Positions 12,201-63,429 of a stretch of DNA of 64,000 nt are shown in pieces (positions within the stretch are counted from its first letter, which is position 1; each line of letters opens with the position of its first letter). A program made the translations under genes and the position numbers. The notes below the pieces were generated by a model, which made no database searches, was not told where the DNA came from, and was given only the letters and a program-made list of their open reading frames with translations. This DNA is from Podarcis gaigeae (taxonomy: Eukaryota). The DNA lies in the NCBI GenBank assembly GCA_964106915.2, contig OZ066916.1; one strand, given 5' to 3'.

Positions 12201-15200
12201 TAACCTGTAATCTATTGTATAATAGTAAGAACTTCAGTTGAAAAAAATCAGGCATGTCGAAAGAGAAGCATACAACATAAATCCGAGACTGAGTGGTAAA
12301 TTCTTGCTCAATTTATGCAAAGATTTTAAAGTTGTATTTATTAATGCTGAAGATACACTGTTAAGCAACCAGTCCCATGTTTGTTTTTGTATAGATATGC
12401 TTAAACTCCCCCCCCCCCCCATTTTTAATAAAATGGGATTTGATTATGGATGGACATGAAACTAAAGACTTGCGGAAATGAAAAAAATGAATAATTTATT
12501 ACGAACATAAACATAAAAGAGCAGTTCTAATAAACCCCTAGTTCAATGTTCTGCTACCAAGAATGGTCTCTTCTCCCTTCACCACCTACCCCGACAAGGA
12601 CCAAATCACTTCTCGAGTATTGGAACCATTTGCTTCATTCCCACACCTACTACAAATTTCTCACCTCAGGTAACATCAGAGCATCCTGTTTAACATCCTT
12701 TCGAGTGTGTGTCAGGATAAGGGACAATACTTCTACTGTTTTTCCAAGGCCCATCTCATCTGCCAATATTCCTCCAGGCCACTGAGGCCCAGCAACTGGG
12801 CGTTCACGAATAATGCTGAAGACCAAAGATTCATCCTAGTTAAGAACATGTTATGTGTATGTATAATTTCTGATCACAAATTTAACAGAAGTAAATGACT
12901 ACATTGGCATTTTCTGAAGTAGGTAACATTCTAGAAGTACGTGCATTTGGAGAAGGATCGTGGACAACCCAATCTCTAATATTTAAGATATACACATAAC
13001 AAAATCCATCATAAGAGTTGCTTTAATCCTACACATTTTTTTAAGAACAGAAAGGAAACGATATATATTTCATTATCAATCAAGCACAGAATTAAATAAA
13101 AATGCTCATTTGCAAAACGAAGCAGGATCCAATATGCTTTCAAATTGGATGGGGAATCATGTGTTGAGATTTCTGTGTTGCAGGGGGTTGGTCTACATGA
13201 CCCTCAGGGTCCCTTTCAAGTTACAATTCTATGGGTTATGAAATCACACTAACAGTTTTAATTCCTTTCCCTATCTTTGTCATATTTTCCTTTCTCATCT
13301 TCAGAAGTATTCAAAAGATATTTATATAATTTCTTATTGTTTAAATCTAGGAAATAGTCACATTAAGGCATTTTCATAAAACAAGAGCTGGAGTGATATT
13401 TATAGCATTAAACACAATTACTTAAATTGTATGCACTTTGGCTGTAATAATAAGACCAATAATCCTTACCAGCCAGTAAAAGGATTATAGTACAGTTTTA
13501 GTCCATCTAAAGTAATAAACTCTCTCCATAAGAAGTGGAGTGCATTTTCTACTGAGAGAAAGAAGAAAACAATGAGATTCATACAAATGCTACTCATATG
13601 ATTTAAATTTATTTTGACTGCTTCTTCGCTTATCTTCAAAGTTGAAAGTACAGAAACTGAAGCTCCGAGGAATCTTATTTGATCATTCCACAATCCCTCG
13701 AGCCCTATGTTCGGTTACAGACCAATGCCCCTTCAGCTTCTATAAGATTAAATGAACCCAGTACAAATAAGTTACAAGACCCTTAAATGACCAGATTGCA
13801 AATCTGGATAACACCACCTCTTAGTACTTTATAGTGTTTTATGTACACAAATCCTTAATGTAATCCCATAAAGTAAACCAGCATTATTAAGCCCAGTTTT
13901 ACAGATCAAGAAGCTTGAAAGACAACTTGTCCAAGTACATGCCTAAGACCAACTAGTGGGTTTATGATCATGATTAGATATGAACCAGAGACTTTCTGAC
14001 CCACAGCTTACTCTCTTAGCTAGTGTGCTATGGTAGGTCTATTTTATTCCTTCTCAAGATAATCGTGTAAATTAAATAGGAACTATGAATCAAAGGTAAT
14101 CTACAGAAACTAATTCTCAGAGCTCATAAGGTTTCCAGCGTTTAAGCCATCCCCAGATCCCAGTTGCCCTAAATGGAAATTTACATGGAGTACCTACTAT
14201 ATTCCAGAAAGAATAATCTAAGATTCAGGTTACATACATTTCCTGCCTACAGCATCAAGGAAATAAGCAATAACTAGGAAGGAAATTTCCAAAAATATAA
14301 ATATGGAAGAGGGGGAATGAAATTTCCCTAAAGAGGGTTCTATTCATAATTAGCCACTTCTGAACCAAGTGATGCATATTAATGCCACACCTGCTATGTT
14401 AGAAACACAAACAACCCTTATGTTGTATATAAACTAAGTGCTGATATATGCAATATGAACATGTCTCAGATCAGCAATTCAGGATGCACAATGGGTTGTA
14501 TTCATTGGCAACTTTGCCTTAGCAGAAAGCAGTTCTATTCACACAAGCAGGGCATCAAATTTTTGCTAGAGGTGGGGGAATTATGTGCGACTTTCTTATA
14601 AGTAATATATCATCATGAATTTCTATCAGTATCAACGTAATCAAGATATATATTTATGTTGCCTTTTTCTAGATACTTGCCATTGGTTGGTACATTTTTG
14701 AAGTTCTCACGTTGCAGCATCCAGTTTACAGCCTCAGTTTGGTATGGCCTCAATACAGGAATCAGTGCAGTGTGCTGTACGTTCTCCTTCAAAAACTGAA
14801 TTTCTTTTTGGTGTGTATGCCTCACATAGTCATAAAGCTCTTCAATATTTTGCCGCTCTATATCTCTATCGGATTCCTCCTCATCTTCCTCCAGAATATC
14901 TAAAAGAACCGTATGGCACTGATTCACAGTCAGTAATGTTTGCAATACCTTAAACGTACTGCAATGAAGTAACAAAACAAATGGGTAAAAATTGTATCCC
15001 TGTACTAAGAAATATTAATCCAGTACCATGTTGTTGCCAATCTTAGGTACAATACCAAATAGTTCTTGGAGGGGAAGAAGAGAACTTGGGTCTCTTTTAA
15101 GATCAAAAACATGACCAATAAATAATACTAGGAACTGGCTAGAATACAATTTTTAAAGTACTGAGTTTGTTTTAAGAAATTATGATTTATTTCCATTATT

Positions 15201-18200
15201 TAAAAAGCTTACAGTACCAACATCAGTTCGCAATTTTTAAAAACAAAATCTTGATTTCATTCACAACACTTTCCTTGTACTTGGTGAACAGTGAAGGTGA
15301 TAATATTATAATTAATGTGTTGATTAAATTTGCTACTGATGAACAAATCCTCTTGCAGCAGCTGTGATGCAGAAAACCAGATGCTATCCTTTAATAGCCA
15401 ACCACTTCCCACCCTCACCATATGAAGTAAGAAAAATAAGTGGAGTGACTATGAACAGGGATAGGGTTGAGCAGAAGGAAGAGGAACATGTAAGGGCTTG
15501 AGCAAATGATGAAGGGAGAGAATGAAGAATCAAAAGACATTTAAAAATGCAAGGCCAAGTTATTTTTCTTCCACTCTCCTCTGCCATTTTGTGTGGGTCT
15601 CCACTGGTAATAATGTGCAACTTATGCATTGATTCACTATACTCAATCATCATTTTTTTTTCAACTTTACAAGCGAATTGTGACTATTTTACACATTATG
15701 AGCCAAGAATACATATATTTAACTAAAGATAGACATCTAAAAATGCACAAAACAGAGTTGTCGGTTTCATTTACTCAGCACAATTTCACCAATTTCAAAA
15801 GAAATCATGCCAATTTACATGACACATCTCTAGCAATATTGTGCAACCATTGACCATTTGGGTACAGTAGTTCGGACTGATGTTCTCTTCAGAGTCTGGA
15901 GGTCAAAACATTATCTTTATAATAAAGTTATTGCTTATTTTCATATGAATAAATATTATTAGCATAGATTTGACCAACATAGCACAGGTATTGCCTAGAG
16001 TCCAGGACCAACAATTGAATGATAGTGCAGGACATATAGGGATATATTTCTACATGATTCTGAATCATACATATTCTGCTCTTTATATAAAGGCACACCC
16101 AACTCTAGGCCATGTTTCCATATACCTTTATGTCATTTGGCAGGCATTTCATTTCTTTATTATCTCCAGAAACCTCACCCGAGCTGAATGAAGTATGCCC
16201 TGTTACTTTGCTGTACCAGAGAATGTTCTGTGTATGTATGCAGTTTACGCAAGTTAAAAGTATCAAAAGTCACCGACAAATGTGACAGATTTAAATAATT
16301 TATGGTCTGCTTCCCACACATTAAGAGAAGCTGAAACCTTCTTTACTCCAGAAACAGTATTTAGAAGATAAATTAAGGTCACCTAAATGTAACACCAAGA
16401 TAAGAACATTTCCTCCAAAACTCATATATATGTTTTAATGGTATAACTAATATGTGTCAATATTATCAAATGAGATTACCTGGAATTATGAAGTGGTAGA
16501 ATTTTTCCATCAGTTTTTGAATAAGTTGATTAGCTTTTTTTATTCTGCCACCACCATCACTAAGGAATTCTAGCTTGCTTAAGCCAACTTCAAGAAGATA
16601 CATTCCAACCTGTGAATGTAATTTTTAGATGAATTTTGGAACGTGCAAGAAAAGGAGAAAAAATGTGAGAAAAAGATCATAAGCTTATTGGTGACTAAAC
16701 TGGAATTCTAAACTTGCTTACCCATGAGCAAACCCCCCCCCCCACTGAATTTAATAGGACTTACTTCCACGTAAACAGGGCTAGAATTGCAGAGTTCATA
16801 GGTGACCACTTTGGCAACTTGTGGCTGAAGGACCAAATGATATGTTTGTGGGAGATCCATTATTAGATTTTCCATTATAATTATTTTCCCATAAGCACAG
16901 CCATGGATCAAAGCAACAATACGCAAGGAAAACAGTCTACCCAATGCCTAGATGCCTTATTTTATTTTTTGCTTGCTTGCTTTTATGTCCCACCTTTCCT
17001 CCAAGAAGCTCAGTGGTTCTCCATCTCTCCATTTTATCCTTATAACAACCTTGTGAAGTAGGCTAGGCTAAGAGACATTGACTGGCCCAAGGTCCCCTAG
17101 TGAGCTTCATGGCTAGAACCCTGGTCTCTCAGCTCTTAGTCAAAAACTGTAACCAATAAATCCTTCAGCCAACTGCTGTTTGAATTATGCCCAAAATCTA
17201 GATAGCAGACAGTGCAAATAAGTGACATTTACAACTCTGAAAATAATCCTACTTCCCTAATAACATAAACCTTCAGGTGTGAAATGTCAATGCTCTCTGT
17301 GGGAGCCCAAAGTCCATCAGATGTAAGCCTTAGTCAAGCATAAATTGGGGATTCTACATGTAATCCTGATTATAATGTAAACTACAGCTTCCTGGATACT
17401 AGGATATGCTAAACTAAATCTTACCAAAAAAACTACCTATAATGTTCATGTTGTAGGCAAGCATTTGGCTTACTTTTAATATTCATTGGACCAATCTTAC
17501 ATTGCAATCCTACACATATTTAGGATTATGTGCATAATGAACTCAATGGAATTTAATTCTGAATAAATATGCATGACAATATTGTTAATGCAAATAGAGA
17601 CAATTCTCTGAAAATCAAACAGAAAGGGTACTGTTTGAATCATATTATGGTGCTGCCAGATGTTCACGTAATATGTTAATTCCAAGTACGAAATAAATGG
17701 CTTATTCTTAGCAGTTAGGAAGTCTTATTAATTACGTAAATCAAGTACCTTTAAGCACTGGCCATCTCCGGATCTTTGACAAAGTACAATTACTCTCTTC
17801 TTTTGCAGCCACATCAAGTCTTCTAACATTTCATTATTTAAAGATGATTCAACTAACACGTCTTCTTGGTAAGTGTTCTGTAATGACTCTTCCCTCTCAT
17901 CGTTCTTTGCATGAATACAGATTCGCAAATGATCACTAGGTTCTGCTCTCATCAATGTAAAACTCTTTTTATGGACATTCTCACTTAGTTGTTGACCAGG
18001 AAGAGGTTGCAGAATGAACTCTCCAAGTAAGGTTTTCCAGTTAGAATCAGAAATATAAGGAAATATCACAATATTTAGCTGTATGGATATAGAAGTCAAG
18101 AGATGGCAGGAATCTTCTGCTTCATCCAAAATGGTTGAAATGCTCAACGATTTTAGGTTGTTTACTTTGAGCGTCGAAACTTCATCAGTGCTATCATCAT

Positions 18201-18375
18201 TTATAACAACATGTGTTGTAAAAGATGAGCTTGTACCTGCAAGAGGTTGGTCTTCATCCACTGCATCCAAATCTATCACTTCATTTTTACAGTCATCATG
18301 CATATTCCAGCAGAGCTGCTTCTTTTTCTCATCATTCATCCTCGATGGAGGAGCACGCTTTCGACGGCCACTCAT
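138..18375 (-). CDS. SHPRH: SHPRH E3 ubiquitin ligase / SNF2-family helicase, 5' part (14 coding exons; 3' part lies beyond the window start)
   Basis: Manually spliced exons 18375-17749, 16609-16480, 14899-14681, 13548-13470, 12815-12665, 11324-11219, 10198-9942, 8931-8251, 7646-7395, 6361-6283, 4525-4362, 4271-4015, 1545-1424, 226-138. Phases are consistent (3213 nt). Contains SNF2 motif [14 protein letters not shown], linker-histone H15 domain, PHD finger, motif II LDEAQ, motif III SGTP and [10 protein letters not shown]. Confidence 0.97.
1329..1352 (+). repeat. (TC)12 microsatellite
   Basis: Read directly from the sequence. Confidence 0.9.
1424..1545 (-). CDS. SHPRH: SHPRH coding exon 13 (STMTMEELL...GLAGIHIIK)
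   Basis: cag| acceptor; G|GTAAAA donor; 122 nt. Confidence 0.93.
4015..4271 (-). CDS. SHPRH: SHPRH coding exon 12 (IQIPAQTED...[11 protein letters not shown]...LQK)
   Basis: tag| acceptor; AG|GTTAAT donor; 257 nt. Confidence 0.95.
4362..4525 (-). CDS. SHPRH: SHPRH coding exon 11 ([10 protein letters not shown]...KDVIDQ)
   Basis: tag| acceptor; CAA|GTAAAC donor; 164 nt; followed by a 90-nt intron. Confidence 0.95.
5025..5160. mobile_element. hAT-type MITE (palindromic)
   Basis: Near-perfect inverted arms CAGTGTTGGCCAAACTTGGGTCTCCAGCTGTTT...; 8-bp TSD TCATAATC (5017-5024 / 5161-5168). Degenerate relatives near 22555, 23540, 30730, 31430 and 63590. Confidence 0.88.
5700..6010 (+). mobile_element. 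L2/CR1-clade LINE fragment
   Basis: Translates [14 protein letters not shown], a typical L2-like ORF2 C-terminal motif; degenerate. Boundaries approximate. Confidence 0.65.
6283..6361 (-). CDS. SHPRH: SHPRH coding exon 10 ([26 protein letters not shown])
   Basis: tag| acceptor; G|GTGAAT donor; 79 nt; motif III SGTP. Confidence 0.95.
7395..7646 (-). CDS. SHPRH: SHPRH coding exon 9 (VYQG...[11 protein letters not shown]...TAK)
   Basis: cag| acceptor; AAG|GTGAGA donor; 252 nt; Walker B DEAQ. Confidence 0.96.
8251..8931 (-). CDS. SHPRH: SHPRH coding exon 8 (PHD finger and motif Ia)
   Basis: tag| acceptor; TTG|GTAAGA donor; 681 nt; CICG...[15 protein letters not shown]...[18 protein letters not shown]. 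Confidence 0.95.
9942..10198 (-). CDS. SHPRH: SHPRH coding exon 7 (linker histone H15 domain)
   Basis: tag| acceptor; GAG|GTAACC donor; [12 protein letters not shown]...[13 protein letters not shown] is an H1/H5 globular-domain pattern. Confidence 0.94.
11219..11324 (-). CDS. SHPRH: SHPRH coding exon 6 ([10 protein letters not shown]...KVHYP)
   Basis: tag| acceptor; A|GTAAGT donor; 106 nt; bridges phase 0 to phase 1. Confidence 0.88.
12665..12815 (-). CDS. SHPRH: SHPRH coding exon 5 (helicase Walker A: [13 protein letters not shown])
   Basis: cag| acceptor; GAG|GTGAGA donor; 151 nt; translates [35 protein letters not shown]... Confidence 0.96.
13167..13241 (+). mobile_element. CR1-type 3' end fragment
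   Basis: GCAGGGGGTTGG...GACCCTCAGGGTCCC...ATTCTATG, matching the end of the 19 kb CR1. Confidence 0.65.
13470..13548 (-). CDS. SHPRH: SHPRH coding exon 4 ([11 protein letters not shown]...YYNPFTG)
   Basis: cagtag| tandem acceptor; TG|GTAAGG donor; 79 nt. Confidence 0.92.
14681..14899 (-). CDS. SHPRH: SHPRH coding exon 3 (DILEEDEEE...[13 protein letters not shown]...PTN), GC donor
   Basis: tag| acceptor; Q-motif LRPYQ; ends AATG|GCAAGT, the only nearby donor that keeps frame; 219 nt. Confidence 0.9.
16480..16609 (-). CDS. SHPRH: SHPRH coding exon 2 ([18 protein letters not shown]...FIIP)
   Basis: cag| acceptor and CAG|GTAATC donor; 130 nt; open in the expected frame; not in the ORF track. 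Confidence 0.92.
17749..18375 (-). CDS. SHPRH: SHPRH first coding exon ([10 protein letters not shown]...QCLK)
   Basis: ATG at 18375; donor AAG|GTACTT after 17749; 627 nt, phase 0; likely acceptor ttacag| just upstream of 18404. Confidence 0.93.
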
Positions 18376-19006
18376 TTTTATGTTTCACTAGCAGTATTTG
18401 ATCTCTGTAATACAGATTGACATCCATTTACATTTCTGCATGGATTAGTATGCTTTGGTTTATTAACAATAAAGGCCTGATCCAAATGTATAGGTAAGAA
18501 TCCATAGTTTATTGAACAGAGAATGAGTGCTGTGTCCCATCTCCTCTCTCTCTCTCTCACCCACCCACGAAAAAATATTCTGGGGTTTGATCAGAAACTG
18601 TGGTTTAATCTCTAACTGCAAATGGTTTTAAGGCAAGAATGATAAATAGTAGCATGTGAAGGAGCCACAACACTTGTCAAAATTATATCTAAAATGTAAG
18701 TCCTGAGTAAAAAGTAAATATATCTTAATCAGTTTATGCTTACAACAACAATATTTTCACAAGTTAAATATTCTTCCCTCCAAATTTGTTTTCTAATTCT
18801 AAATATAATTCAAAACATTACCATCTCTAAAGGGTGAATTCACCAGTGGATCTGTACCCTTCATCTCGAAATATAAGACTAGTTAATTATGAAATGGTGT
18901 TATTTAAAAATAGGCATGTGATTACAAATGGATGGAGACCATGCACCCAAGATATAGTCTAAATCCCAAGATTTATGGTTCCTCGTCATCCTGGAAAAAA
19001 GTGACA

Positions 19007-21670: not shown

Positions 21671-23857
21671 ATTGTGTGCTTTTATATTATTAGTGCTTTT
21701 AATTGTCTTAATTGTTCTTACCAATAATGTGGTGTGTTTTTATTTGTTTTGGGAAATGTTTAGGATTTTTTTTAAAACAACAACAGCAGCAGCAGCAGCA
21801 ATGAATCTATATAGAAATTTTATGAAACATATAAATAAATAAATAAAATTGGGGTTCCACAGCAAAATGGATCCAACAAGCCAGAAGTTTGCCCACCTTG
21901 GTTCATAAGAGGAAGAGAAAGCAGGTCAGCTGGCAGAAATAGCTCTTCCTTTTGCCTGTTTCTGGCTCCCTGCTGCTGAGCCAAATCCCTGCTGCTGCAC
22001 CACCCAAAGAGAAAGGCCAAGCAAACAAAGGGAAGCAGCAGAAACCATCCCTGGCTGAGCGATCCTAAGGAGGCAATGGCTGCTGCTGCCCTGAACCTAG
22101 AAAGGAGGTGGGTAGAAGACTGAGGACGGCAGGGAAGCATGCAGGCAGGCTCCTGCCTCTTCTCTCTTGCCCACCCTTGCTGGTGCCCACCTGTCAGTCA
22201 TGCGGTATCATCACAACAAGCTGAATAATATTTTTGCAGAACTGAAACTGCAGTGGAATGGAAGCAGTGCTGCATGCACTGGATACAGAGCAAAATGGAA
22301 GATGATGGATTATCACAAGTAGACGCACATCCAGCAACAGATCTAGGAGAAGTTCCAATAGTAAAGTGTCCGTGCAAATGCGACCTTGGTAGAACATCAA
22401 GGGAACATTGCAGGAATATTACGGTGGGGTTGCAGGTGGACATGATGTCACAAGTACTATGACCACCTTGCTGCATTCAGTAAGTTTCACTAGTTAGGAG
22501 CATAGCCTTATACTGAGTCAAACCATTGGTCCATCTCGCTCAGTATTGTCTGCCTCGTCCCTGGCCATTGGCCATGCTGGCTGGGGCTGATGGAGTCCAA
22601 CAATATCCGAAGGGCCAGATGTTAACCCCCTGTGATCTGCACTTACTGGCAGTAACTGTTCAAAGGTTCAGACAGGGAATATTCCCAGTTTTACTTGGAA
22701 ATGGTAGGGAATCTTGGGTTTCTGGCATACAAACCAGAAGCTCTGTTGCTAAGCTACAACCCTTTCTGCAGTTACTGAATAGGAACCATTAATTTTACAA
22801 GTTGAATTCAACTTTTAATAATTTCTTTTTTTAAAACAACAACACCTTAATGAAAGATTAGAAGACAAATACAGCTAGTTAATGTTGACACTACATAACT
22901 GCAGTGAGCCAACACACTCGGTTCTCCCCCAAAGAAGGCGTTTAATAACATCTACCTGTCTGCTTCAGTAGAACAGCTTTGACACCTTTCAAGGCTCACA
23001 GGGATATGGCGATAATTATTTAATTAAAGTGTGCAAAAGCTTGTGAAGATTTGCCGACAAGAACATAGCCCAGCATAAATCAGATGTTTTACTACAGCAG
23101 ACTATAAAACTATTCAAGCATAAAGTTGCTGTACTTAAGTTTCAGATCAGTGAAGAGATCAACTTTATATAACCCAGTGGGGAAATTACCTCCAGAGGAT
23201 TTTACACCTTCATTTCCTTCCTCCAGTTTAATTGTTTATGTTGTATACTAACACGCCAGACATCACAGAGGATTTCCGGCAATGTTCATAATGTTCTTTT
23301 ACACTAAGTAATGATCCTGTATGGCTGGTCTGAGAGTGAAAGATCCAGATTATTTGGGGCAATGTTACTTAGTGGGACACTTAAGGCTTTTCAAGATGAC
23401 CCTAAAGGTGGGTGTATTGCTGTGATAACACAGAGTAATATACACTGATGGAGCTTAACTTGGTAGGGTGGTAGGGCATGTCTGCTTTGTGGCTTTTCAG
23501 TACCCATCTCATTATATATAAATATTTCAAAGTATATAGGGGTGAGGAACCTGTCACCATCCAGATGTTATTGGACTCCAACTCCCATCAGCCCCAGACA
23601 ATATGGCCAGTGGTCAAGGATGATGTGAATTGTAGTACAACAACATCTAGAAGACCATAAATTTCCTATCCCTCGTATAGAGGATTTCACTGGTAGTTGA
23701 CTCTGTGATGAACAGAGGCCAAAATTCTTTCAGATACACAGACAATCAACACATGTGCCCACACTGAATTTCTATCCCTTATTTGAAATGTCTTTGCATA
23801 TTGTTATTAATACAGAATTTCCCTGTGGTAGCTTCTGGCAGGCAATAGCTCTGTCTT

Positions 23858-36679: not shown

Positions 36680-37519
<840 letters not shown>

Positions 37520-42038: not shown

Positions 42039-42397
42039 GGAACGCAGGTGGCACTGTGGTTTAAACCACTGAGCCTAGGGCTTGCCTATCAGAAGGTTGG
42101 TGGTTCAAATCCCCGCAATGGAGTGAGCTCCCATTGCTTGGTCCCTGCTCCTGCCAACCTAGCAGTTTGAAAGCACGAAGTGCAAGTAGATAAATAGGTA
42201 CCACTCTGGTGGGAAGGTAAATGGCATTTCCGTGTACTGCTTTGGTTTGCCAGTAGCAGCTTAGTCATGCTGGCCACATGACCCGGAAGCTGTCTGCGGA
42301 CAAACGCCAGCTCCCTCGGCCAGTAAAGCGAGATGAGCGCCGCAAGCCCAGAGTCGTCCGTGACTGGGCCTAGCAGTCAGGTGCCCCTTTACCTTTT
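42039..42397 (+). mobile_element. Full-length Sauria SINE
   Basis: tRNA-like head with GGTTCAAATCCC B box; ACCTTT-type tail; TSD CACAAACACA (42027-42036 / 42400-42409); reverse-complement homology to 58447-58777. Confidence 0.88.
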
Positions 42398-46807: not shown

Positions 46808-49177
46808 CTGGGAATGTCTCCAGTCTGCAACTCTGGAGAGCTGTTGCCAAACATTGTAGACCATCCTGGGATGAATGGACCATTTGTTCTTGTGCTATGT
46901 CTGCAGGACCTTTATGCATGACCAACATAGGAGGGTAAAAAGTGGGCAGACTGTGGTTGTGATAAGGGAAATATCAGGAGGAACCTTATGCTCACTCAAG
47001 ACTCATTCATTCCCCATGATGTCTATGAAAGAGTTGATGAAATTTAAAACACTGTGATTGTAATGAACAGTCCCAGCTGACTATTCTCCACCTGTTCCCT
47101 CCCTGTCCTCCCTGCTGCAATGGAGGCTGGAATTCACAACACACCTCCAGGGGCATTTAAGACTGAGCCAGGAAACTATAATTTCACATGGGCATGTGGC
47201 ACCATGTCTTCTTGTCCCTAGCATGCAGATTGCACAAGTGGGAACATGGTGTGTGGTGCACCTGTCAAAGGCTACAAACAGCAGCATCTGACAGCAAAGT
47301 AGCTCATGTGATGAGCTATCAGAACTGCAGCTTGGCCATGGAGTAGTCTCAGCCTCTGGCCTGCCAGCTCCTCCCTGAGGCCTGCCATCTTGGCTGCGAG
47401 TCCTGGGAGACCTGCTCCCTGCCTTTTCCACCTGACCTGGGAGGGTGGGGCACTGAAGGACTCCAGCTACAAAAGCTGAGACTGATGAACAGACTCTTAG
47501 ACTGCATTGGGGCATTGTTTAGGGGGTTTTGTTGGGGGGGAGGGTTTGTTGCTGTTATTGATACTAATTTGCTGCATCTTTATTTCAGTACTTACTATGA
47601 GTTGTGTGGAGTTGTTTAATTTGGTTGTGTACTTTTTGATGTTTATCTATTGTTTATAACTACTTTTGTTATGTTCATAATTATGGATTTTTTTATATTG
47701 TAAAGCCTCCTTGAGCATGGCTTGAACTATAGGAAGGTGGCGTGCAAATAAAATGATGTATGTATGTATGCTCCTGGAAAGTGATGGCTATAAAAGGCTT
47801 CCTGACTGGACTGGGCAATGAAGTCCATTTACCTGAGCAACAAGGTCTGGTTCTAATGCATTCCTGTTCTGACTGCCAGTTCAGTACACTACAAAGACTT
47901 GCATCATGAGCCTGCCTTTTGGCTTTCTTAGAAGGTTGCTCTAGAGAATGGGAGGTTGGGGGTTCTGCCTCTTTCTGGTCTGTGTCACTTTTGTCATAAG
48001 TCCATTCTCTCTCATTTGTGCACTGATCCACAATTATTGTTTTTTAAAAAAAGTAAAATCAGCAAAAAAGGGCATTTCAATATGTAGCCTTGAATGTATT
48101 TTCTCACAAAATAGACAGTGCTAAATGCACAGTATCTCAAACTGCTCTGATGTGCCTTTTGAATTAGGAGCCGCACACAAGAGAAATGTGAAATCCAAAG
48201 AACAGAGATGTTCTGTTGAGCAGATTAGCCTGGAAGGTTAGTGTGGATCAGGTCAAGTTGTATCTGAATTCACAAAGAAGTAATTCCTCAATTTCTCCTA
48301 ATAGCAGCAGTTGCTTTCTCTTCCCCACTGTGCCATGGTGGTCATCATGGGCTTGTGTGGTCATTCCTTCTTCCTAATTGCCTAGCTCTGGTTTGGTTTG
48401 TGTCTGTAACAGAGAAGGGAGGGTGTGCTGTGTAGGGTAGCAGCACTAGATATCCATTGATATGAGGTGACATTGTTGGCAAGTGAGGTCATGATTGATG
48501 CATGCCGATGATGTTTCCAGGGATGCTGTGCTAGTGGCTGTCAGTATTGCTCTAATTTCATTGCTGTGCTTCCTGCTGGTTGAGCACAGGATTGCATTAT
48601 ACTACAATTAGGATCTGGCATAGCACAACCTACTTTAACTAGACCATGGGATTGCCCTGGTCCATGGTATTTAGTAGCTGATGTGTGCCAGACACTGTAT
48701 GGAGCACAGAAGTGACAGGCCTTCTCCAGATGATGAAAGATTCACATGAGGCAGAGAAAACAGGGAAGCGGGAAGAGGTCGGGTTTCAGGTCAGAAGTCA
48801 GTTATGAGGGAAAAGGCTAAATTGTACAGAAATGGGAGCTGGAAGGAACAAAGGGAGTTGACATAAAGTGAGCATGTGCAATAGTAGGACTAAGGGAAAA
48901 AATCACTGAAATGGAAATTTACATCCAAGAAGCTTGCATTTGGTTTCACTGCCTTCCACTTATAAAGAATTAATCAGTCCGAACTCCTCCAAAATGGGTC
49001 AACTGTGCTTCTGGTGCTCTGGTCTACACTTAAGAAGGCAGATCTTAATATTTTTTGGTTTAAATTGTGAAATCACCGGATGATGGATTTCTGTTGCCAG
49101 AAGGAGAACATTTATAAATAAAACAAAAAAATATATGCTTCCAGTAGCACCTTAAAGACCAACTAAGTTAGTTCTTG

Positions 49178-49215
49178 GTATGAGCTTTCGTGTGCATGCA
49201 CACTTCTTCAGATAC
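49178..49215 (-). ncRNA. Minimal type I hammerhead ribozyme motif
   Basis: Identical 38-mer to 62666-62703. Confidence 0.85.
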
Positions 49216-49363
49216 ACTGGTTAATGGACTTCCATTTCATGCGGCTCAATGTGGTGCCTTCCATAGTTCCAGTTACAGATAGGTAGCCGTGTTGGTCTGC
49301 CATAGTCAAAACAAAAAAAATTGCTTCCAGTAGCACCTTAAAGACCAACTAAGTTAGTTCTTG

Positions 49364-49401
49364 GTATGAGCTTTCGTGTGCATGCACACTTCTTCAGATA
49401 C
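49364..49401 (-). ncRNA. Minimal type I hammerhead ribozyme motif
   Basis: Identical 38-mer; 186 nt from the 49178 copy. Confidence 0.85.
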
Positions 49402-51081
49402 ACTGGTGGCAGACCAACACGGCTACCTATCTGTAACTGGATTTATAAATAATGTAGCCTTCATGGCTCTCAAAGTCACCATTCCAGGATTTTTGAGACT
49501 CTGGAAAGTGTGATCCTAAGCAGGTCTACTCAGAAGTAAGCCCCACTACATTCCATGTGGCTTACTCCCAGCTAACTGCAAGCTAAGTGAATGAATATTG
49601 TTGCTAACCAACTGCTGCCTGGCAGGCCATGTGGAAAGAGCTAGAGCTCTGTGTGAGTTTTTAAGGCAGCTGGCATTCACATCTTGGAATCCACTGTCAT
49701 AGATGGCATTAATTAAAACCACTACTGTGAGGCTCCGCAGAAAGGCTCCCTGACTGACTGCCCATGGAGACTGAAAGGGGGAACTGCCTTACCCCTGCAG
49801 GTGACAGAACTGGTATGCACACCAGGAGGAAATCAGTGATCTCCCCCCCTTAAATGTGAAGAAAACTTTTCCTAAGCTGATGGAAAAAACAAACATTTTA
49901 TGGCAAGGCGGCTTACTTTCCCTCTCTCTCTCAGATCAATTCAGAACAATTAAAATAACATAAACATAGATTGAGGTTGAAATCCTAACTCCATTTCCCT
50001 AGGATTTACCCCTGTAAATTCAATAGCATTCTGAGCAGACTTGTTTAGGATTGCAGTGTAATGTGTTAAAAGTTGTTTAATTGTACACCATCTATAAATA
50101 AGTGTTGATGATAAAAAACTGTATTTTTTCTACCCAATTTTTCTTAAAAATGCTCATGGTGGCTGTCTGCTGTGTTTGGATCTTTCCTTCCCATTAAAGT
50201 GGCCATGTACTCTACAGAGGACAGCCTGATTTTAAAGGTGATCTTTATTTAAAGGATTGTACATGCTTAGTTTAAAGATCAAGAACGATGATAAAGCAGA
50301 GCAGGACTCTTCTCCTGGATAGCAGACTGAGCACCCCACACACAGACCCCAGACCCATCACATGCCATGCTGAGTTACCCTTCCTGAATAGAATAGCCCA
50401 CATCAGGGACTCTTCTCTCTTTTCATAAAGATATTCACATATCAAAAAAAGATAGCCTGTATTTCTCGTGGTTGCATAAAGGTCTGCAATCTATTAGTAG
50501 ACAGATGCACAGACCATTTTTTTGCAATTAAAAAAGTTCCCTAATGAAAGCCACACCTTACACATGCCCTGAAGTGTTTTTTCCTAAATTTTATTGCATA
50601 TTTGAACATTTTCACGCTTCTCGCACAGTGCTAATTAACACATTGATTGAGTCCCACGTATAGTGTTTTCTAACTAGAATATGCATATGACTTCTCTTTT
50701 AGCAGAAACATGTCTTTTGGTGTTCAGCTATCACAATGGAGCACAAGGTAACGTCAGACACACTTTGGGGAGGGTCATGGCTCATTGGTAGAGCCCATGC
50801 TTGGCAGTTTTGTCAGTACTGAGAGCTTAAAGCAGCTCTCTATGATCTTTCTCAAAGCACCTTTGGAGAACAGTGAAAGCTATGCTGTTGAAATGGCGAG
50901 TACCACTTGTCTTGAAAATAACAGGTTATTTCCTATCATTCAGAAAGCTTCAATCCACATTCAGGTCTGATAGTTTCCTCCATTCTTGTGTTCAGCACAT
51001 TCACCATGGGCCATTTTCCAGCCTTTCTATACTTGAGTGAGGTTTCCTTCTCATTAAGAAGCAACAGTTCATACATTTGCC

Positions 51082-56100: not shown

Positions 56101-57983
56101 CTTTGCAACCACAGACATTTGGACGTCATTGTCATCCTAGCATGTGCACCAGATCCAATAGACTGTAGCACATGCTTGTCCCTTTTAAGATCATAGGAAT
56201 CTGCCTAATACTGAGTCAGACTGGCATCTCTCCTAGCCCTACCTGCAGTTACCTGGGATTGAACCTGGGACCTTGACATCCAAAGCAGATGCTCTACCAA
56301 TGGGCCCTGGCTCTTCAACAAGCACCTGGCCACCTATTCTTTTCTTTTCTATTCTTAATTGCATTTAGTGTACAAGCCTGGTCTTTCCCTAACTAATACC
56401 TCATTGCAGCCCACTCCATTATTCCCCAAGAAGTGTGACAAGATCTGCCAAGTTTTATGCTAGAGCAGAAGATGCCTGGATTGCTTATACTCCTTTTCCT
56501 GCTTTTTTCGCACTGCACAAACCAGTCTTGATTTATCCTCCTCTGCCTTTAAAGAGCTTTCCCTCTCTCTTCTTTCATTTTGAAGCTACAGTATATTGGT
56601 TTTATATTCCCACATGGCTTACCAGATTAAGCAGCAGAAGGTGTAAAATGAGGCAACCTAGATTTGTTTTATCTTGTGAGATTTCTCAAAGACATTGTTT
56701 AAAGCCAAGCAGTATATACACTGCAGTTCAATGATAAAAGTTCTTCTGGAGCTCTGGTTTTTTCAGGAGAAGCCATGAAAATCATTCCAGCAAGAAAATA
56801 AAAAATTCAAGTGCATCCAAAGAGGAAGAAATAAAATCAATCTGCAAAAGGCAGAACACCCATCACCAAAATATACTAAGCACCATTCAGTATTTTTCCC
56901 TTGATTTCCCAGAAATCATATTCAACCTTATTTAAAGGTTGGTGGGAAATACTTGTGGCTTCTCCATTAATTTCAAACTATAAAAGCAAAAAGGCTTCCC
57001 CTGCTACTTTCCAGATGACTCTGGGGCTATGTCTCAAATATAAACAGATAGTTGTTAATCTATCCAAAATATTTTAAGTGAACTTTTAAGAAACTCTTCA
57101 CCCTTTCTTCTGTAACTAAACTGAGATAACTACATAGTTTTATCAAACCTTGTACAGTATTGTATTAATTTATTTTTAAAACTATGGATAGTGTGTTCAC
57201 TATAGGGTGTTGTGCTGTGCTAAATTTCATTCATACCACTGACCATGATGACACAACAGCAGATCATCAGACATGTAACCACACCACCCTTTATGTATTT
57301 CTGTGCCTTTGTTCCTCTATAAATCACCCATGAAAACGGAGGGAAAGAATAATAAGCCACAATACCACCCCAGGGCATTAGCCCAAATCAGACATATACA
57401 TCTGGTGCAAACAAAAAAGCATGATAAACTGTGTGCTGAAAGGAAGGAAGGGTGGGACGTAATTTGAAAAAAGAAATGCATAAATAAATCATAGAACTTT
57501 TTGAATCTATATGAATACCTGGAAGTAGTCATGTTTTGTCTGTTCCAAGCAATGGCCACTGCCATATTGAGGTTTTGGCCCAAGCTTGAAGCTAAGGCAA
57601 AAATTTTAGTTTCAGTAGAGCAGACCACAGTGAGGCAAAATAGGATGAGGTCCATGTGAAGCAAGAATTTGGGATTCAGACAGCACCATGGACAGCTCCA
57701 CATTGCACTCAGGCTGCAGACGAAGATCAAGATTGAAAGGTGGCTTCAGCAATTGGCAATCCCAGACTGAAACTCAAATGGATGGACATTTCCATGTGGG
57801 TGGCTGTCTCTGCCTTCAGTGGGAGAAATCTCTTCAATTATAGGGGCCTAGGCTGCTTTATCAGCTGTTAAATCCAGTAGTACTGGGGAGATTGTAGTTC
57901 TTCTGGAGCTTCTAGGCTGAAGTCCTTGGAGTCAGAGCAAGGGAAATGCAACTTCCTCAAACTGGAGTGGTGCTGGCACAGTA

Positions 57984-58209
57984 CAGTGGTACCTCCGGCT
58001 AAGAACTTAATTCATGCCGGAGGTCTGTTCTTAACCTGAAACTGTTATTAACCTGAGGTACCATTTTAGGTAATGGGGCCTCCCACTGCTGCTGCGCCAT
58101 CGTCGTGCGATTTCTGTTCTCATCCTGAAGCAAAGTTCTTAACCCAAGGTACTATTTCTGGGTTAGTGGAGTCTGTAACCTGAAGCGTCTATAACCCGAG
58201 GTACCATTG
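57984..58209. mobile_element. Tc1/mariner (Tigger-like) MITE
   Basis: TIRs CAGTGGTACCTC / GAGGTACCATTG; TA TSD on both sides; second copy at 60610. Confidence 0.87.
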
Positions 58210-58446
58210 TAGTCTCTTCTTGTGGTAGTGCTTCTGAGGTTGGAGGGGCATACTGGGCTACCTCTGAGGGCAATTTCCTCTCCTATTCTGATATCTCAGC
58301 CTCAGCCCCTGAAGATGGAGGGTTGGACCCTGAGGGGTCATGACAAAGACTCACAGAGTTGTAGGGTTGTAAGGGATCCTAAGGGTCATCTAGTCCAAAC
58401 CACTGCAATGCAGAAATAACAGTTAAGGTGCACTAATACGAATAGT

Positions 58447-58777
58447 AAAGGTAAAGGGACCCCTGACCCCCATTAGGTCCAGTCGTGACCGACTCTTTGG
58501 CTGCGGTGCTCATCTCGCTTTATTGGCCGAGGGAGCCGGCGTACAGCTTCCGGGTCATGTGGCCAGCATAACTAAGCCGCTTCTGGCAAACCAGAGCAGT
58601 GCACGGAAATGCTGTTTATCTTCCCACCAGAGCGGGAACTCTGACGTGCTTTCGAACTGCTAGGTTGGCAGGAGCAGGGACTGAGCAACGGGAGCTCACC
58701 CCATTGCGGGGATTCGAACCGCCAACCTTCTGATCAGCAAGTCCTAGGCTCTTAACCCACAGCACCACCCGTGTCCC
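58447..58777 (-). mobile_element. Sauria SINE
   Basis: AAAGGTAAAGGGACCCCTG...GGGATTCGAACC...GTGTCCC; imperfect TSD containing CGAATAGTA. Confidence 0.88.
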
Positions 58778-60609
58778 TCAATTCGAATAGTACTTACTTC
58801 CAAGTCAATGTGTTTAGAATCACAGCCCTAATTACTGGTACTTTCATGCCGCAGAACTTAACCAGACAATTTATTGGCTCTTCCAGAGATAATGTTTTGC
58901 CAACAAATGTTATACATCTTGAGAGCTGATTCAGTCAGCTTCTCTCTGACAGGCATTGTCAAAGAAGTTCTTGTGTAATCAACGGGGGGGGGGGGGAGCC
59001 TCCTCTCCATTGGCCTGTTTACTTTCTAAAACAAAATTCAAATCTCTGAGGTAATAGCACACTTGAAAAATGAAACATATCTGATATCCCAGGGCTGCTT
59101 TAATAACTATAACCTTGGATGCACTTTTCCTCACGTTGCATTGAGTGTGCGAAGGAATGGGATTGTGTGTGCTATCTGCAGCTCAGTATGGGAGGTTCTT
59201 TCCATGTGATGAAGGACCCTGGAAAATCAGGGTTGTATGTACATGAAACAAAGAGTACACTGAACACTGAAAAATATAGGGCTGGATTCAGTTACCTGGC
59301 CTGCTTGTAGAAGCGAGTGCAAGGACTCCCTCTAGTGTAGTGGAGCTTTCCCCACCCTCTCCTCCTTCCATGACCCTCTGCACCCCGCCCAGATCTGCTC
59401 TGGAGGGTCAGGAGAATTCTTAGCACAGGGCACAAGGGGAGGAGAGAGGATTATGTTTCATCTGGCAAGCAGAAATGCTTGTACTGATGGAACGATTTCC
59501 TTAGCTCTACTTGTAGATTTATCTGTTTCATTCCATTTATGAATCTCTTCCTACAAAACACCTGAAAACAGTTTAACAATAAAAACGCCAACAATACAAA
59601 CATATATGAAACAATTTCATAGGTAAAGCAATTTCAAACCCAGTGCAGTTGCAGACTGGGATACAAATCTCCACTTAAAAGACTTATTGGAAAAGGTATG
59701 CCTTCAATATTTATAAAACACTTTTCACCACTGATGATTACAAAGCTATTTACAAAACACACAATACAACATCAGTCAAGTATTATGATGTTTAAGATAA
59801 TAAAAAACACAGGTAAAAACATAAAATTGCCATCATAAGCACTGGGATAAAATAGAGACTGTGTCTGTTTGCTACGTAACAAAAGCAAGTTCCAAGGGAT
59901 AGTTGCCAACCACATTAAGTGCTCGATTGCTGCATTGTAGAGAACAAACTTCCTGATGAGATGTTATCTTCAGGAGGGGGTCTCATGCCAAGTATGGTGA
60001 TTTGTAGGGTATATTAGATATCATGGTCCAAAGCTGTATAGGGTCTTGCATACCATGTCTGTGTTCATGTCATGTTTACCCCCAGTCTGCAAACCAGGCT
60101 AAAAATTTTAAAAACGTCTTTAATTTTTCTTTTTACCCCAGTGGAATGAGGCATGGAAACCACTCTCTGCCCTCCTGCAGTAATTGTTTCTTTCCTAAGC
60201 CAGGGTGAGAAGCTTCAGTCTACCCCTAATAAGGAGCCAAGCCTCATTCTTGTGCTAAACATAAAGGTTTATCTTTGCCAAAGAGAAAAAAAGACACCCC
60301 AAATGTGGTTCCACTAATATTTTCATTGCAGTTTGATCCTTTTTTACGAACACAGTGAGGAAAAGATCTGCTTTTGAGAGAGATCCTTCTAGAAAAGTTT
60401 TTAAAAACCCCCACAAAAAAACCCTAACTAACCAGTGAACAAAATATCAGATCCCACTATTGGCTTCTCAGCTAAGTTCCTATTTTAAGACAGAGAGAGA
60501 CAGAGAGACTTTTTAATAATAAAAAAACCACTCTGAGGAAAACAAAAATCAACTTAGATTGCCACTGATGAAATATTTTATCACAATGTAGGTAGCTAGT
60601 TACCTTATA

Positions 60610-60818
60610 CAGTGGTACCTTGGGTTAAGTACTTAATTCGTTCTGGAGGTCCGTTCTTAACCTGAAACTGTTCTTAACCTGAAGCACCACTTTAGCTAAT
60701 AGAGCTTCTGCTGCTGCCATGCCACAGCTGCATGATTTCTGTTCTCATCCTGAAGCAAAGTTCTTAACCCGAGGTACTATTTCTGGGTTAATGGAGTCTG
60801 TAACCCAAGGTACCACTG
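60610..60818. mobile_element. Tc1/mariner (Tigger-like) MITE nested in a tRNA-SINE
   Basis: TIRs CAGTGGTACCTTGGGTTA / TAACCCAAGGTACCACTG; TA TSD. Confidence 0.88.
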
Positions 60819-62665
60819 TATTCAGTCAGGCTAATTGTTGGTCTAGCTCAGTACTGCCCTACCTGACTGGGTGCAGCTCTCCATGATTTCAGACAGGGGA
60901 TTTTCCCAGCCCTTCCTGGAGATGCAAAGAGTTGACCTGGGATGTTTTGTGTGCAAAACAAACACTCTACAACTGAGCCGCAATCCTTCCCCTGTTAGCA
61001 CCCCTCTCCATGGTGCTACAACAACTCTCCATTGTGGCTATGCAGATGAACCGTCTCCCAAGCACCTGGGTGCAAACACATGTGACTTCCTCTTACCCAC
61101 CCAGCTTGAGAGTATCCTTGATATATTAATAAAGCCACTGCACTGTGACAAGAAAAGCGAGTCGTCTCAAGACTCGCACACTTTACATTACAAAGGCGCC
61201 TCCAAATTTGTCCATTTAAAAATAAATAAAATTGGTTTAGAAAAATGTTAAACCATTTAGTCAAAGCACCTCTAAGCATGGTACACAATATAATATAAAA
61301 TAGTACTACACATGAAAATCAGAAAAAGTTTTCAACAAGTATTTGAAAATAGTGAACATTTTTACCGACTGCTCCGATAGGTACCCTACTGTGATGCTAT
61401 TTTTTTGTTTTCCCAATAATAATTTATAATAATAATTTATTATTTATACCCCACCCATGTGGCTGGGTTCCCCCAGCCACTCCCAAAGCTACCCCCCCCC
61501 AAAAAAAATTGGCCCTTGCAATCTGGCTATCCCTACTTTTTTATACTTTGGTGACACCCACTTTCTTACTTTGGTCATGCCTACTTTTACACTTCAGACA
61601 CATCCACAATTATACATCATCTCTGGAGGGATAATCATGAGTCAACGTGGCCCTCAACCCCAAAAATGTTAGCTACCCCTGCTTTACAAGCTTGTTTCAG
61701 TTTGAGCTTGAGGTGGAATTTCATTTAATGCAAGCCATTTTGTTCCTTTCTAGCCTTTATGTTAATATTGGTAAGGTTGGGTTCTTTGCTTCTAATATAT
61801 CAGACATAATACATTCCCTGGTGGTGCATTTTTTTCACATTTACCATGCAATCCTATGCATGTCTACTCAGAAGTCTTCCCACTGAATTCAACAGGACGT
61901 ACTCCCAAGTAAATATACAGAAGTTTGCAGCCCTTTAAAGATTAATAGGCTACTGTTATCAGCTGTTTGAGGCTATTTTTCAAAGAACCAATCCAGCTTC
62001 TACATAGACCCTGAATTTCAAAGACATTTAATTTTATCTGAAGAGTGTGCCTGATTCTATCCCATCTGTACAGCAGACTGGGAACTCAGCCAAGAAGCAT
62101 GAGCTATCCTGCACTTTCTGAACTGTATGTTATGAATGCAAGAGAGCTTGCAGAGAAACCCATAAACAGAGTTGTTCCAGCATTTATTAGTATATGCAGA
62201 ACATTTTCCTGTCCAGGAGAAACAAATGTTGTTCAGAATGGAAAATCAGACTAAACATAGACATGACAGCATGCCAGATCAGCCAGTTTACTGAGCAATC
62301 AGGTAAGGTGTGAGTAATTCTGGAAATGCGTTATATATTGCATGGAGATGTCCTTCTGTCATTCTTTCTAATGTAGCACTTGGTAGTCATGTGCCTGTTA
62401 AATGGACAGTGAAACAGAGCCACTCCAAGACAAGGCGGTGGTTTCCAAATACTTAGAAAAGTATGCCAAAAAAAATAGTTCTTTTAAGTTCTTTAAGGTA
62501 AGGGGAGGAACCAAATCAGTCAATGAGGGCTGAGTATGCTCACTATGCTTCAGGGAACACATTATGACGAGCAGTTACAGATAGGTAGCCGTGTTGGTCT
62601 GCCATAGTCAAAACAAAAAAAATTCCTTCCAGTAGCACCTTAAAGACCAACTAAGTTAGTTCTTG

Positions 62666-62703
62666 GTATGAGCTTTCGTGTGCATGCACACTTCTTCAGA
62701 TAC
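62666..62703 (-). ncRNA. Minimal type I hammerhead ribozyme motif
   Basis: Exact reverse complement of 63256-63293. Confidence 0.85.
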
Positions 62704-62883
62704 ACTGAAACAGAAGTTACCAGACCCTTCTATATAGTGAGAAGGTGGGGAGGGGTATTACTCAGAAGGGTGGTGGGAATGGGTGATTGGCAGATAGCTG
62801 TGATGAGCCTGTTGACGACTCTTAACGACTGCAATAGGTCTTACAGGAAAAAGCAAGGGGTGAGAAGGTGAAAAATGGCTTTG

Positions 62884-63018
62884 TCATGTATAATGAGATA
62901 AGAATCCAATGTCTTTGTTCAGACCAGGTCTCTCCATGGTTTTAAGTTTGGTAATAAGTTGCAATTCAGCAGCTTCTCTTTCCAGTCTATTTCTGAAATT
63001 CCTTTGTAGTAAAACAGC
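62884..63018 (-). pseudogene. C-terminal 44 aa of a PLE GIY-YIG endonuclease (AVLLQRNFRNRLEREAAELQLITKLKTMERPGLNKDIGFLSHYT*)
   Basis: Manual translation; R-x3-E...I...GLN pattern typical of the C-terminal part of Penelope GIY-YIG domains; stop codon at 62884-62886. Confidence 0.8.
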
Positions 63019-63168
63019 TACATGGAGAGACCTGGTCTGAACAAAGACATTGGATTCTTATCTCATTATACATGACAAAGCCATTTTTCACCTTCTCACC
63101 CCTTGCTTTTTCCTGTAAGACCTATTGCAGTCGTTAAGAGTCGTCAACAGGCTCATCACAGCTATCTG

Positions 63169-63255
63169 CCAATCACCCATTCCCACCACCCTTCTGAGTA
63201 ATACCCCTCCCCACCTTCTCACTATATAGAAGGGTCTGGTAACTTCTGTTTCAGT
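63169..63255 (+). promoter_or_regulatory. PLE pLTR Pol II promoter (CCAAT, TATA-like box, Inr); mirror copy on the minus strand at 62704-62790
   Basis: CCAAT 63169-63173; TATATAGA 63223-63230; Inr-like TCAGT 63251-63255 with its A exactly 30 nt after the TATA start. Confidence 0.65.
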
Positions 63256-63293
63256 GTATCTGAAGAAGTGTGCATGCACACGAAAGCTCATAC
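63256..63293 (+). ncRNA. Minimal type I hammerhead ribozyme motif (sense to GRM1)
   Basis: GUAU-CUGAAGA-A-GUGUG(CAUG)CACAC-GAAA-GC-UC/AUAC: stem I GUAU/AUAC, core CUGANGA and GAAA, palindromic AGCU in place of stem III, predicted cleavage after C63289. Confidence 0.85.
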
Positions 63294-63429
63294 CAAGAAC
63301 TAACTTAGTTGGTCTTTAAGGTGCTACTGGAAGGAATTTTTTTTTGTTTTGATTATGATGAGCCTTAGCCAGTATGATGAAAGGGAGGAAGAAAAAGAGG
63401 GTATGGAAATTTGACTTTGATTGAACCAG

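What the first reader, a model, noticed from the sequence alone, without database searches (positions are those of the whole stretch)
62561..63363. Young Penelope-like insertion forming a 331-bp near-perfect hairpin in the GRM1 intron
Seen: 62608-62938 and 63021-63352 are reverse complements (the only difference I found is A8 versus T9) around an 82-nt loop, with 12-bp TSDs differing by one CpG-type transition. The loop plus left arm encode the last 44 aa of a GIY-YIG-like domain. Established: PLE insertions often show inverted pLTRs and a short tail extension. Inference: the insertion is recent and the family may still be active. The GRM1 pre-mRNA would fold a long dsRNA (ADAR/Dicer substrate) and the DNA could extrude a cruciform.
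Basis: partly seen in the sequence, partly recalled or inferred. Interest (0 to 1): 0.75.

Follow-up and report, generated by a model that had tools for sequence, protein, structure and literature searches.

The report
Head-to-head Penelope-like insertion in lizard GRM1
A near-perfect 331-base DNA hairpin in an intron of a lizard glutamate-receptor gene is two truncated, head-to-head copies of a very common Penelope-like jumping gene, a layout already described for this class; one end of it is also found in a related species, so it is likely not brand new.

Summary
The hairpin is real: arms 62608-62938 and 63021-63352 have no substitution and one homopolymer indel, around an 82-nt loop, inside a 12-bp target duplication with one mismatch. 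The loop peptide matches, 44 of 44, the C-terminus of an RT + GIY-YIG protein with the Neptune-type zinc-finger linker, from a lacertid-wide family with near-intact ORFs. Inverted copy + tail + TSD is the published Penelope-like layout, and massive A-to-I editing of Penelope in lizard brain is published. 'Recent' is weakened: the left junction is in contigs of another individual and of a second species label; a third label likely has the empty site. No listed contig spanned the inversion junction. Cruciform extrusion across 82 nt is unlikely. Most likely origin: priming from both cut target ends at two start sites, with fold-back self-priming a close rival. Residual leads: both start sites abut a repeated ACUAUGG, and most copies stop about 30 nt below a TATA box. 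The scan noted the same pattern earlier in two shark-type genomes. Ordinary.

The parts
62561..62572 (+). Left target-site duplication (12 bp); last base shared with the tail
   Evidence: X3 and X4 show no C>T here, so C is likely the state of this copy in all carriers
62572..62607 (-). Tail extension, 36 nt; starts a reading frame that continues into the ORF start in the sister insertion
   Evidence: 135 of 136 identical to 49270-49405 with the adjoining arm end
62608..62938 (-). Left arm: 3' end of the element (ORF end, 3' UTR, TATA-like box, hammerhead, U-tract), sense on the minus strand
62666..62703 (-). Minimal type I hammerhead motif, left arm
   Evidence: descriptor scan, 4 hits in the window, all in this family; 0.02 per shuffle
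62884..63021 (-). Last 45 codons and stop of the RT + GIY-YIG ORF (first codon borrows one base of the right arm)
62939..63020 (-). 82-nt loop: extra ORF sequence of the longer copy; its two ends carry a 6-bp complement (62939-62944 with 63010-63015) offset by a 5-nt bulge
63021..63352 (+). Right arm: shorter 5'-truncated copy, no tail, sense on the plus strand (same strand as GRM1); holds the last 17 codons at 63022-63072
63223..63255 (+). TATA-like box (63223-63229) and initiator-like TCAGT 30 nt downstream; predicted promoter, mirrored at 62704-62736
   Evidence: sequence; offsets; function inferred
63256..63293 (+). Minimal type I hammerhead motif, right arm; predicted cut after 63289
   Evidence: features as in PMC4209133
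63352..63363 (+). Right target-site duplication (12 bp), T for C at the CpG; first base shared with the arm
49110..49452 (-). Sister insertion of the same family: perfect 12-bp TSD (49110-49121, 49441-49452); two short hammerhead units in tandem (49122-49219, 49270-49405) joined by 50 nt of ORF start (49220-49269); inverted tail-only copy (49407-49440)
36680..37490 (+). GRM1 coding exon upstream (reading frame from the preceding stop; true start not fixed), donor GT at 37491

Best explanation
This is a dead, head-to-head pair of 5'-truncated copies of a Neptune-type Penelope-like retrotransposon, with tail, hammerheads and a 12-bp target duplication, likely made when both ends of a staggered cut primed reverse transcription at the element's two start sites and the two short cDNAs were joined. 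Shown: identity, anatomy, sister insertion, sharing of the left junction. Inferred: the endonuclease left 12-nt 3' overhangs; the top-strand end primed at the tail end (449-nt copy), the bottom-strand end 36 nt further in (332-nt copy); the two cDNA ends met through a 6-bp complement at the loop. In GRM1 pre-mRNA the arms would pair into 330 bp of dsRNA, likely edited by ADAR and likely masking the one sense hammerhead; no effect on the gene is expected. Confidence that it is an ordinary Penelope-like insertion is about 0.97; the figure given is for identity plus two-ended priming.
For: Peptide identity and domain order; CX4CX2C linker at 445-453 of P0002 and in 92 of 92 fetched proteins that carry the YIG-type motif. 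Both insertions in the window have a 12-bp TSD, one end at the tail end and the other at the pLTR end, the two tail ends within 1-2 nt and the two pLTR ends within about 3 nt of each other. In the sister insertion the short inverted copy stops at the tail end although its would-be DNA template runs on for about 150 nt, which fold-back alone does not explain. The Anolis Poseidon protein cuts and extends both strands, uses the same two internal start sites on both, the tail being the sequence between them, and is predicted to be a dimer (PMC11167929). Layout published (PMC3846280; PMC8557442; opposite-strand hammerhead pairs 100-700 bp apart, PMC4209133).
Against: Only two insertions could be examined; no genome is held. 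The arms agree at every family-variable site listed (e.g. 62643, 62658, 62718), which a copy of one cDNA explains more simply than two RNAs. The retained 5-nt bulge beside the 6-bp complement (chance about 0.45%, 108 of 24,000 windows, a test chosen after seeing it) fits a single folded strand well. The in vitro work is on a Poseidon element, another clade, and found no homology between target and RNA, whereas three of the four ends here show partial homology. The loose-end peak at 62572-62573 is not independent, because the reference's element sequence ends there.
Confidence: 0.57

Rival explanations
1. Same element, but made by fold-back: one cDNA primed at the tail end stalled after 449 nt, snapped back through the 6-bp complement, copied itself, and was resolved at the pLTR end by target homology or by the endonuclease.
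For: 6-bp complement plus terminal C-G pair with a retained bulge; arms identical at all listed variable sites; target matches the element in 5 of the last 8 bases at this end (6 of 8 with the C-bearing TSD). Self-priming was proposed for head-to-head copies (PMC3846280) and endonuclease resolution for the tail (PMC8557442).
Against: The same complement would also anneal two independent cDNA ends. In the sister insertion the short arm ends at the tail end with 1 nt of homology and its junction has no comparable stem. Both-strand extension is shown in vitro.
Confidence: 0.33
2. Assembly artefact: a fold-back chimera or polishing made the inversion or the perfect arm identity.
For: No listed contig spans 63020/63021; the best-matching run X1 has a flank contig that stops at 62504, short of the junction. 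Zero arm differences where 3-4 are expected from flank change (conditional P 0.06-0.09).
Against: TSD on both sides; left junction in X3 and X4; X7 contig leaves the reference exactly at the end of the TSD; published layout; a second insertion with the same end rules. Contigs of a family with over 11,000 pieces per run cannot be expected to span the junction.
Confidence: 0.04
3. The hairpin is kept by selection as a regulator of GRM1 (editing-inducer, small-RNA source or ribozyme switch), with arm identity maintained by conversion.
For: Shared by two species labels; arms more alike than the flank clock predicts, though not significantly; template switching can homogenise inverted arms (abstract of PMC8604942).
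Against: About 25 kb from the upstream exon, no next coding exon found in the window; likely absent in X7; one of a very large family; minimal hammerheads are inactive as monomers in vitro (PMC4209133). Conversion needs no selection.
Confidence: 0.04

Closest known systems
Canonical EN+ Penelope-like insertion unit (Arkhipova et al. 2013, PMC3846280; Craig et al. 2021, PMC8557442)
   Same: 5'-truncated copies, adjacent inverted copy in head-to-head order, 30-40-bp tail at one end only, TSD of similar length (8-10 bp there, 12 here), pLTR + tail covering the first codons.
   Different: No full ORF between the arms: both copies are so short that the insertion is a hairpin with an 82-nt loop.
Neptune clade of PLEs (as defined in PMC8557442)
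   Same: RT followed by CX2-5CxxC linker and C-terminal GIY-YIG with CCHH pattern in the family protein P0002; 68-70% to turtle proteins.
   Different: Nematis shares the linker; no tree with named Neptune/Nematis references was built; Repbase and Dfam were not available, so the family name is not known.
Poseidon of Anolis carolinensis, PAc (Frangieh et al. 2024, PMC11167929)
   Same: Two end positions bounding a tail, hammerhead in the pLTR, AT-rich target starting ATT in both insertions, AC-rich loop predicted in the tail.
   Different: Other clade; ORF start lies below the hammerhead, at or after the tail, not in stem II; partial target-RNA homology at 3 of 4 ends here, none reported there.
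Minimal type I hammerheads of metazoan PLEs (Cervera and de la Pena 2014, PMC4209133)
   Same: Conserved core, 4-bp helix I, extra base between A9 and G10.1, G10.1-C11.1 pair, palindromic 15.2/16.2, no loop 3; opposite-strand pairs known.
   Different: Here helix II is 5 bp with a 4-nt loop (a 14-nt palindrome), shorter than the 7-8 bp in Schistosoma; cleavage untested.
Non-LTR retrozymes (bioRxiv 10.64898/2026.07.22.740005)
   Same: PLE-derived, hammerhead-bearing, non-coding; the sister insertion has two hammerhead units in tandem.
   Different: The main insertion is inverted, not a tandem array, and carries ORF sequence and TSDs.

Membership tests
EN+ Penelope-like element | Family encodes a telomerase-like RT with C-terminal GIY-YIG endonuclease in one ORF | tested here: met
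   Insert peptide 44/44 to P0002, which has RVT_1 (E 4e-12) and GIY-YIG (E 3e-5, 24.7 bits over cut-off 22.6); the insert itself holds only the C-terminal codons
EN+ Penelope-like element | Direct or inverted pLTR-type repeats from 5'-truncated copies | tested here: met
   Inverted pair at 62608-63352; tandem pair in the sister insertion
EN+ Penelope-like element | 30-40-bp tail at one end, running into the ORF start | tested here: met
   36 nt at 62572-62607; in the sister copy it continues in frame into a peptide matching residues 1-15 of a 757-aa relative and two turtle proteins
EN+ Penelope-like element | Target-site duplication | tested here: met
   12 bp, 1 mismatch; 12 bp perfect in the sister; X7 contig departs at the TSD end
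EN+ Penelope-like element | Hammerhead motif in the pLTR | tested here: met
   4 hits in the window, all in this family, 0.02 per shuffle; Rfam gave no hammerhead hit at E up to 10
EN+ Penelope-like element | Retained spliceosomal intron | not tested
   No RNA holder listed
Neptune clade | CX2-5CxxC zinc-finger-like linker upstream of GIY-YIG | tested here: met
   Residues 445-453 of P0002; 92 of 92 fetched proteins with the YIG-type motif; shared with Nematis
Neptune clade | RT phylogeny groups with named Neptune elements | not tested
   No named reference sequences were held
Minimal type I hammerhead ribozyme | Core, helix I, G10.1-C11.1, extra base after A9, palindromic helix III stub | tested here: met
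   against features
Minimal type I hammerhead ribozyme | Self-cleavage (as dimer or protein-assisted) | not testable with these tools
   Unconstrained folding of the monomer does not give the active fold
Non-LTR retrozyme | Tandem array with a hammerhead in at least two consecutive units | tested here: not met
   Main insertion has two hammerheads on opposite strands; the sister has two unequal units separated by ORF sequence
MITE / fold-back DNA transposon | Terminal inverted repeats reaching both ends, no RT-derived sequence | tested here: not met
   36-nt tail outside one arm; arms and loop are RT-EN ORF and UTR sequence
microRNA precursor | Match to a curated family at its gathering score | tested here: not met
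   Best 61 bits against 184; all 9 hits below gathering, driven by the stem

The most novel reading that the evidence does not exclude
Lacertid Neptune elements integrate by two-ended priming at two start sites marked by a repeated ACUAUGG heptamer 39 nt apart (each holding an in-frame AUG), with the target end pairing partly with that heptamer; transcripts starting about 30 nt below the pLTR TATA box then yield mostly 95-135-nt promoter-to-tail mini-copies, and self-contained hairpins like this one are why Penelope is the main hyper-edited LINE-class repeat of lizard brain.
Probability: 0.25. Interest if true: 0.5.

Novelty: new member of a known kind. Interest (0 to 1): 0.2.

Why it matters
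As a single locus it matters little: one of many dead copies, deep in an intron. It is a usable presence/absence marker among related lizards. The class-level leads matter more: how Penelope-like elements make head-to-head copies is unresolved in the papers read (self-priming, endonuclease resolution), and a lacertid genome with thousands of young copies would let two-ended priming and fold-back be told apart by counting. It would also tie the reported mass editing of lizard Penelope to a structure.

Tried and rejected
No whole genome is held, so no family-wide count of hairpins or ends. Metagenome scans gave nothing: tail pattern 0 matches; P0002 60 pattern hits, 0 confirmed. No RNA holder listed: editing, expression and splicing untested. 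Rfam: 9 sub-threshold hits, miRNA/snoRNA models fitting the stem, rejected; no hammerhead family hit. Bacterial promoter scan not applicable. Summed contig depth is no copy number; used only as a rough shape. X1's flank contig stops at 62504 at about half the depth of its neighbour; cause not determined, not used as evidence. Loose-end peak at 62572-62573 rejected as independent support. Target-RNA homology: 16 of 32 matches over four ends, reached by 382 of 100,000 random intron targets, but terminal matches are built in by how TSDs are drawn and AT-rich targets inflate it; my hand recount without terminal matches is 11 of 24, weak. Arm conversion: P 0.06-0.09, not significant. Supplements of PMC11167929: 0 hits for six terms in 7,325 readable characters; its figures S1-S2 and GenBank file could not be seen and may bear on end positions. 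Earlier notes by sequence and by place: none.

Full report
Observation. The arms 62608-62938 and 63021-63352 are reverse complements with no substitution and one gap in a homopolymer (A8 against T9), around an 82-nt loop. A 12-bp direct repeat with one C/T difference at a CpG flanks the whole unit, 62561-62572 and 63352-63363; such a match arose in 20 of 200,000 random position pairs. Between the left duplication and the left arm lie 36 nt with no partner on the right: the tail. The host gene is GRM1: the ORF at 36680-37522 matches mGluR1 structures best, its donor is at 37491, and a search with short recalled motifs found no next coding exon in the window. The insertion lies about 25 kb into that intron.

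Identity. The minus-strand peptide of loop and left arm is 44 of 44 identical to the end of P0002, 585 aa (2 hits among 19 candidates), which has RT and GIY-YIG domains. The peptide alone has no Pfam hit; it lies after the catalytic motif. P0002's 90% cluster has 7 members, 4 named: Podarcis raffonei, Zootoca vivipara and two Podarcis muralis entries, one 99.3% identical over 583 aa. So the host is very likely a lacertid lizard and near-intact ORFs exist. The next relatives are turtle proteins at 68-70%. P0002 has a CX4CX2C linker before the endonuclease, as do 92 of 92 fetched proteins with the YIG-type motif; Craig et al. give this as the mark of Neptune and Nematis (PMC8557442, 12 of 19 passages seen). 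I call it Neptune-type; no tree was built.

Each arm holds a minimal type I hammerhead (63256-63293 plus, 62666-62703 minus). My descriptor found 4 hits in the window, all in this family, against 0.02 per shuffle. They show the features listed by Cervera and de la Pena (PMC4209133, parts 1-2 of 4 read), who also report opposite-strand pairs 100-700 bp apart and no cleavage by monomers. A second insertion lies at 49110-49452 with a perfect 12-bp TSD. On the minus strand it reads: inverted tail-only copy, hammerhead-to-tail unit, 50 nt, hammerhead-to-U-tract unit. The 50 nt continue the tail's reading frame into a peptide matching residues 1-15 of a 757-aa relative (E 0.003) and two turtle proteins (E 2e-7; E-values for the small set of fetched proteins): it is the ORF start, so this copy is an internally deleted partial tandem.

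Age and sharing. I laid 4 of the 24 listed runs, all contigs, on 61500-63050. X3 (same species label as the best holder, another sample) has a 718-nt contig fitting 61879-62596 end to end, and X4 (another label, same study as X3) a 751-nt contig fitting 61847-62597. Both run 24-25 nt into the tail, which matches the empty-site continuation in only 9 of 25 bases, and stop where a contig entering a high-copy repeat should. X7 (a third label) fits 61879-62572, the last base of the TSD, then goes on for 100 letters unlike the reference: likely the empty site, though those letters were not shown, and contigs show presence, not absence. Flank differences from the window are 11 of 1,087 (X3), 15 of 1,118 (X4) and 16 of 1,067 plus 2 gaps (X7). 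Substitutions at 62520 (window lineage), 62475 (window and X3) and 62447 (X4) lie within 125 nt of the junction. So the insertion is older than about 0.5% change per lineage, or was passed by introgression long enough ago to gather these changes. Against this, the arms show 0 differences where 3-4 are expected; conditional P is 0.06-0.09, a mild tension that chance, arm homogenisation (abstract of PMC8604942) or polishing could explain. X1's flank contig ends at 62504, so the best holder gave no view of the junction, and no listed piece spans the inversion (32 of 59,217 pieces shown).

Family. Between 11,462 and 20,698 contigs were laid per run, 4,634 to 8,280 of them at least 99% alike; a small part belongs to another repeat at 61812-61915. 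At no listed site (40 of 48 shown) does the window's arm differ from nearly all copies. Summed depth, which the tool says is no copy number, is several-fold higher over tail and hammerhead than over the ORF end, and loose ends peak behind 62702-62705 in all four runs (24 of 1,443 rows shown). Both units of the sister insertion stop at the equivalent of 62707. These positions are 29-33 nt below a TATATAG box. I infer a transcription start there, with most copies being start-to-tail mini-copies; RT stalling at the hammerhead is the alternative. Rotifer PLEs have a putative TATA and initiator in the pLTR (PMC3846280, 11 of 11 passages); the Drosophila Penelope promoter is TATA-less (PMC2377424, 7 of 7 passages).

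Mechanism. Frangieh et al. (PMC11167929, parts 1-2 of 4 read) show that an Anolis Poseidon protein cuts and extends both target strands, starts at two internal sites with the tail between them, and is predicted to be a dimer; the text read does not discuss inverted copies. Both insertions here have one end at each site. That is what two-ended priming predicts, and the sister's short arm stops at the tail end where a fold-back copy has no reason to stop. Fold-back has real support: identical arms, and a 6-bp complement at the loop ends with a retained 5-nt bulge (about 0.45% by chance, post hoc); Arkhipova et al. favour self-priming. The same complement would join two cDNAs, so it does not decide. 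I put two-ended priming at 0.57 and fold-back at 0.33. Both sites abut a repeated ACUAUGG, 39 nt apart (49261, 49300), and three of four target ends partly match it; with two insertions and built-in biases this is a lead only.

Consequences. The pre-mRNA would fold a 330-bp stem. Porath et al. (PMC5625713, 10 of 10 passages) report over 40,000 hyper-edited sites in lizard-brain Penelope, so editing is expected and known for the class; their one mention gives no structural reason. Nothing was tested at this locus. The sense hammerhead would be buried in the stem. Cruciform extrusion is unlikely: yeast Alu inverted repeats lose most breakage and fork blocking above an 8-bp spacer (PMC8053094, 12 of 15 passages); hairpins in single-stranded DNA remain possible.

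Comparison and novelty. Inverted truncated copy, tail and TSD are the described PLE layout. It is not a retrozyme by the tandem criterion (bioRxiv 10.64898/2026.07.22.740005, part 1 of 5), nor a MITE or miRNA. Searches listed no paper on this lacertid family's hairpins, and none of the PLE papers among the 7 listed holds the phrase 'twin priming'; the library lacks most subscription papers, and Repbase and Dfam were not available. Two earlier notes of this scan describe the same pattern in shark-type genomes and call it ordinary; I did not check their DNA. Verdict: real, a new member of a known kind, interest 0.2.

Noticed in passing
window 49110-49452: Second insertion of the same family: perfect 12-bp TSD, two tandem hammerhead units joined by the ORF start, and an inverted tail-only copy; both units end at the same base and are followed by G.
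   Followed up: yes
window 49261-49267 and 49300-49306 (and 62602-62608): A heptamer (ACTATGG on the minus strand) is repeated 39 nt apart; each holds an in-frame ATG and each abuts one of the two insertion ends.
   Followed up: partly
window 62702-62707 / 63252-63257: Family 5' ends peak 29-33 nt below a TATA-like box, at the start of hammerhead helix I, in all four runs laid.
   Followed up: partly
window 3870-18384, minus strand: Several ORFs that look like exons of SHPRH (helicase, PHD, linker-histone-like parts), divergent from GRM1; the name is recalled, from no call.
   Followed up: no
window 5027-5158: Small element with 56-nt inverted arms 20 nt apart (91%); degenerate relatives at 23560, 30754, 31430 and 63597: a MITE-like fold-back family, several inside the GRM1 intron or upstream.
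   Followed up: no
window 57973-58180 and 60607-60829: Two related copies (84-87%) of another short element with inverted ends.
   Followed up: no
window 42071-42396 and 58351-58751: Inverted pair of a SINE/LINE-like repeat, 83-91% alike, 16 kb apart in the same intron; another possible dsRNA source.
   Followed up: no
window 61812-61915: A multi-copy repeat (high summed depth); 7 of the 15 listed joints link it to ends of the Penelope-like family at other loci, spacing not known; a similar motif lies 70 nt from the sister insertion.
   Followed up: no
window 61847-62504: In run X1 the flank contig has about half the depth of its neighbour (64 against 116), differs from the window at 62305 like all other runs, and stops at 62504; unexplained.
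   Followed up: no
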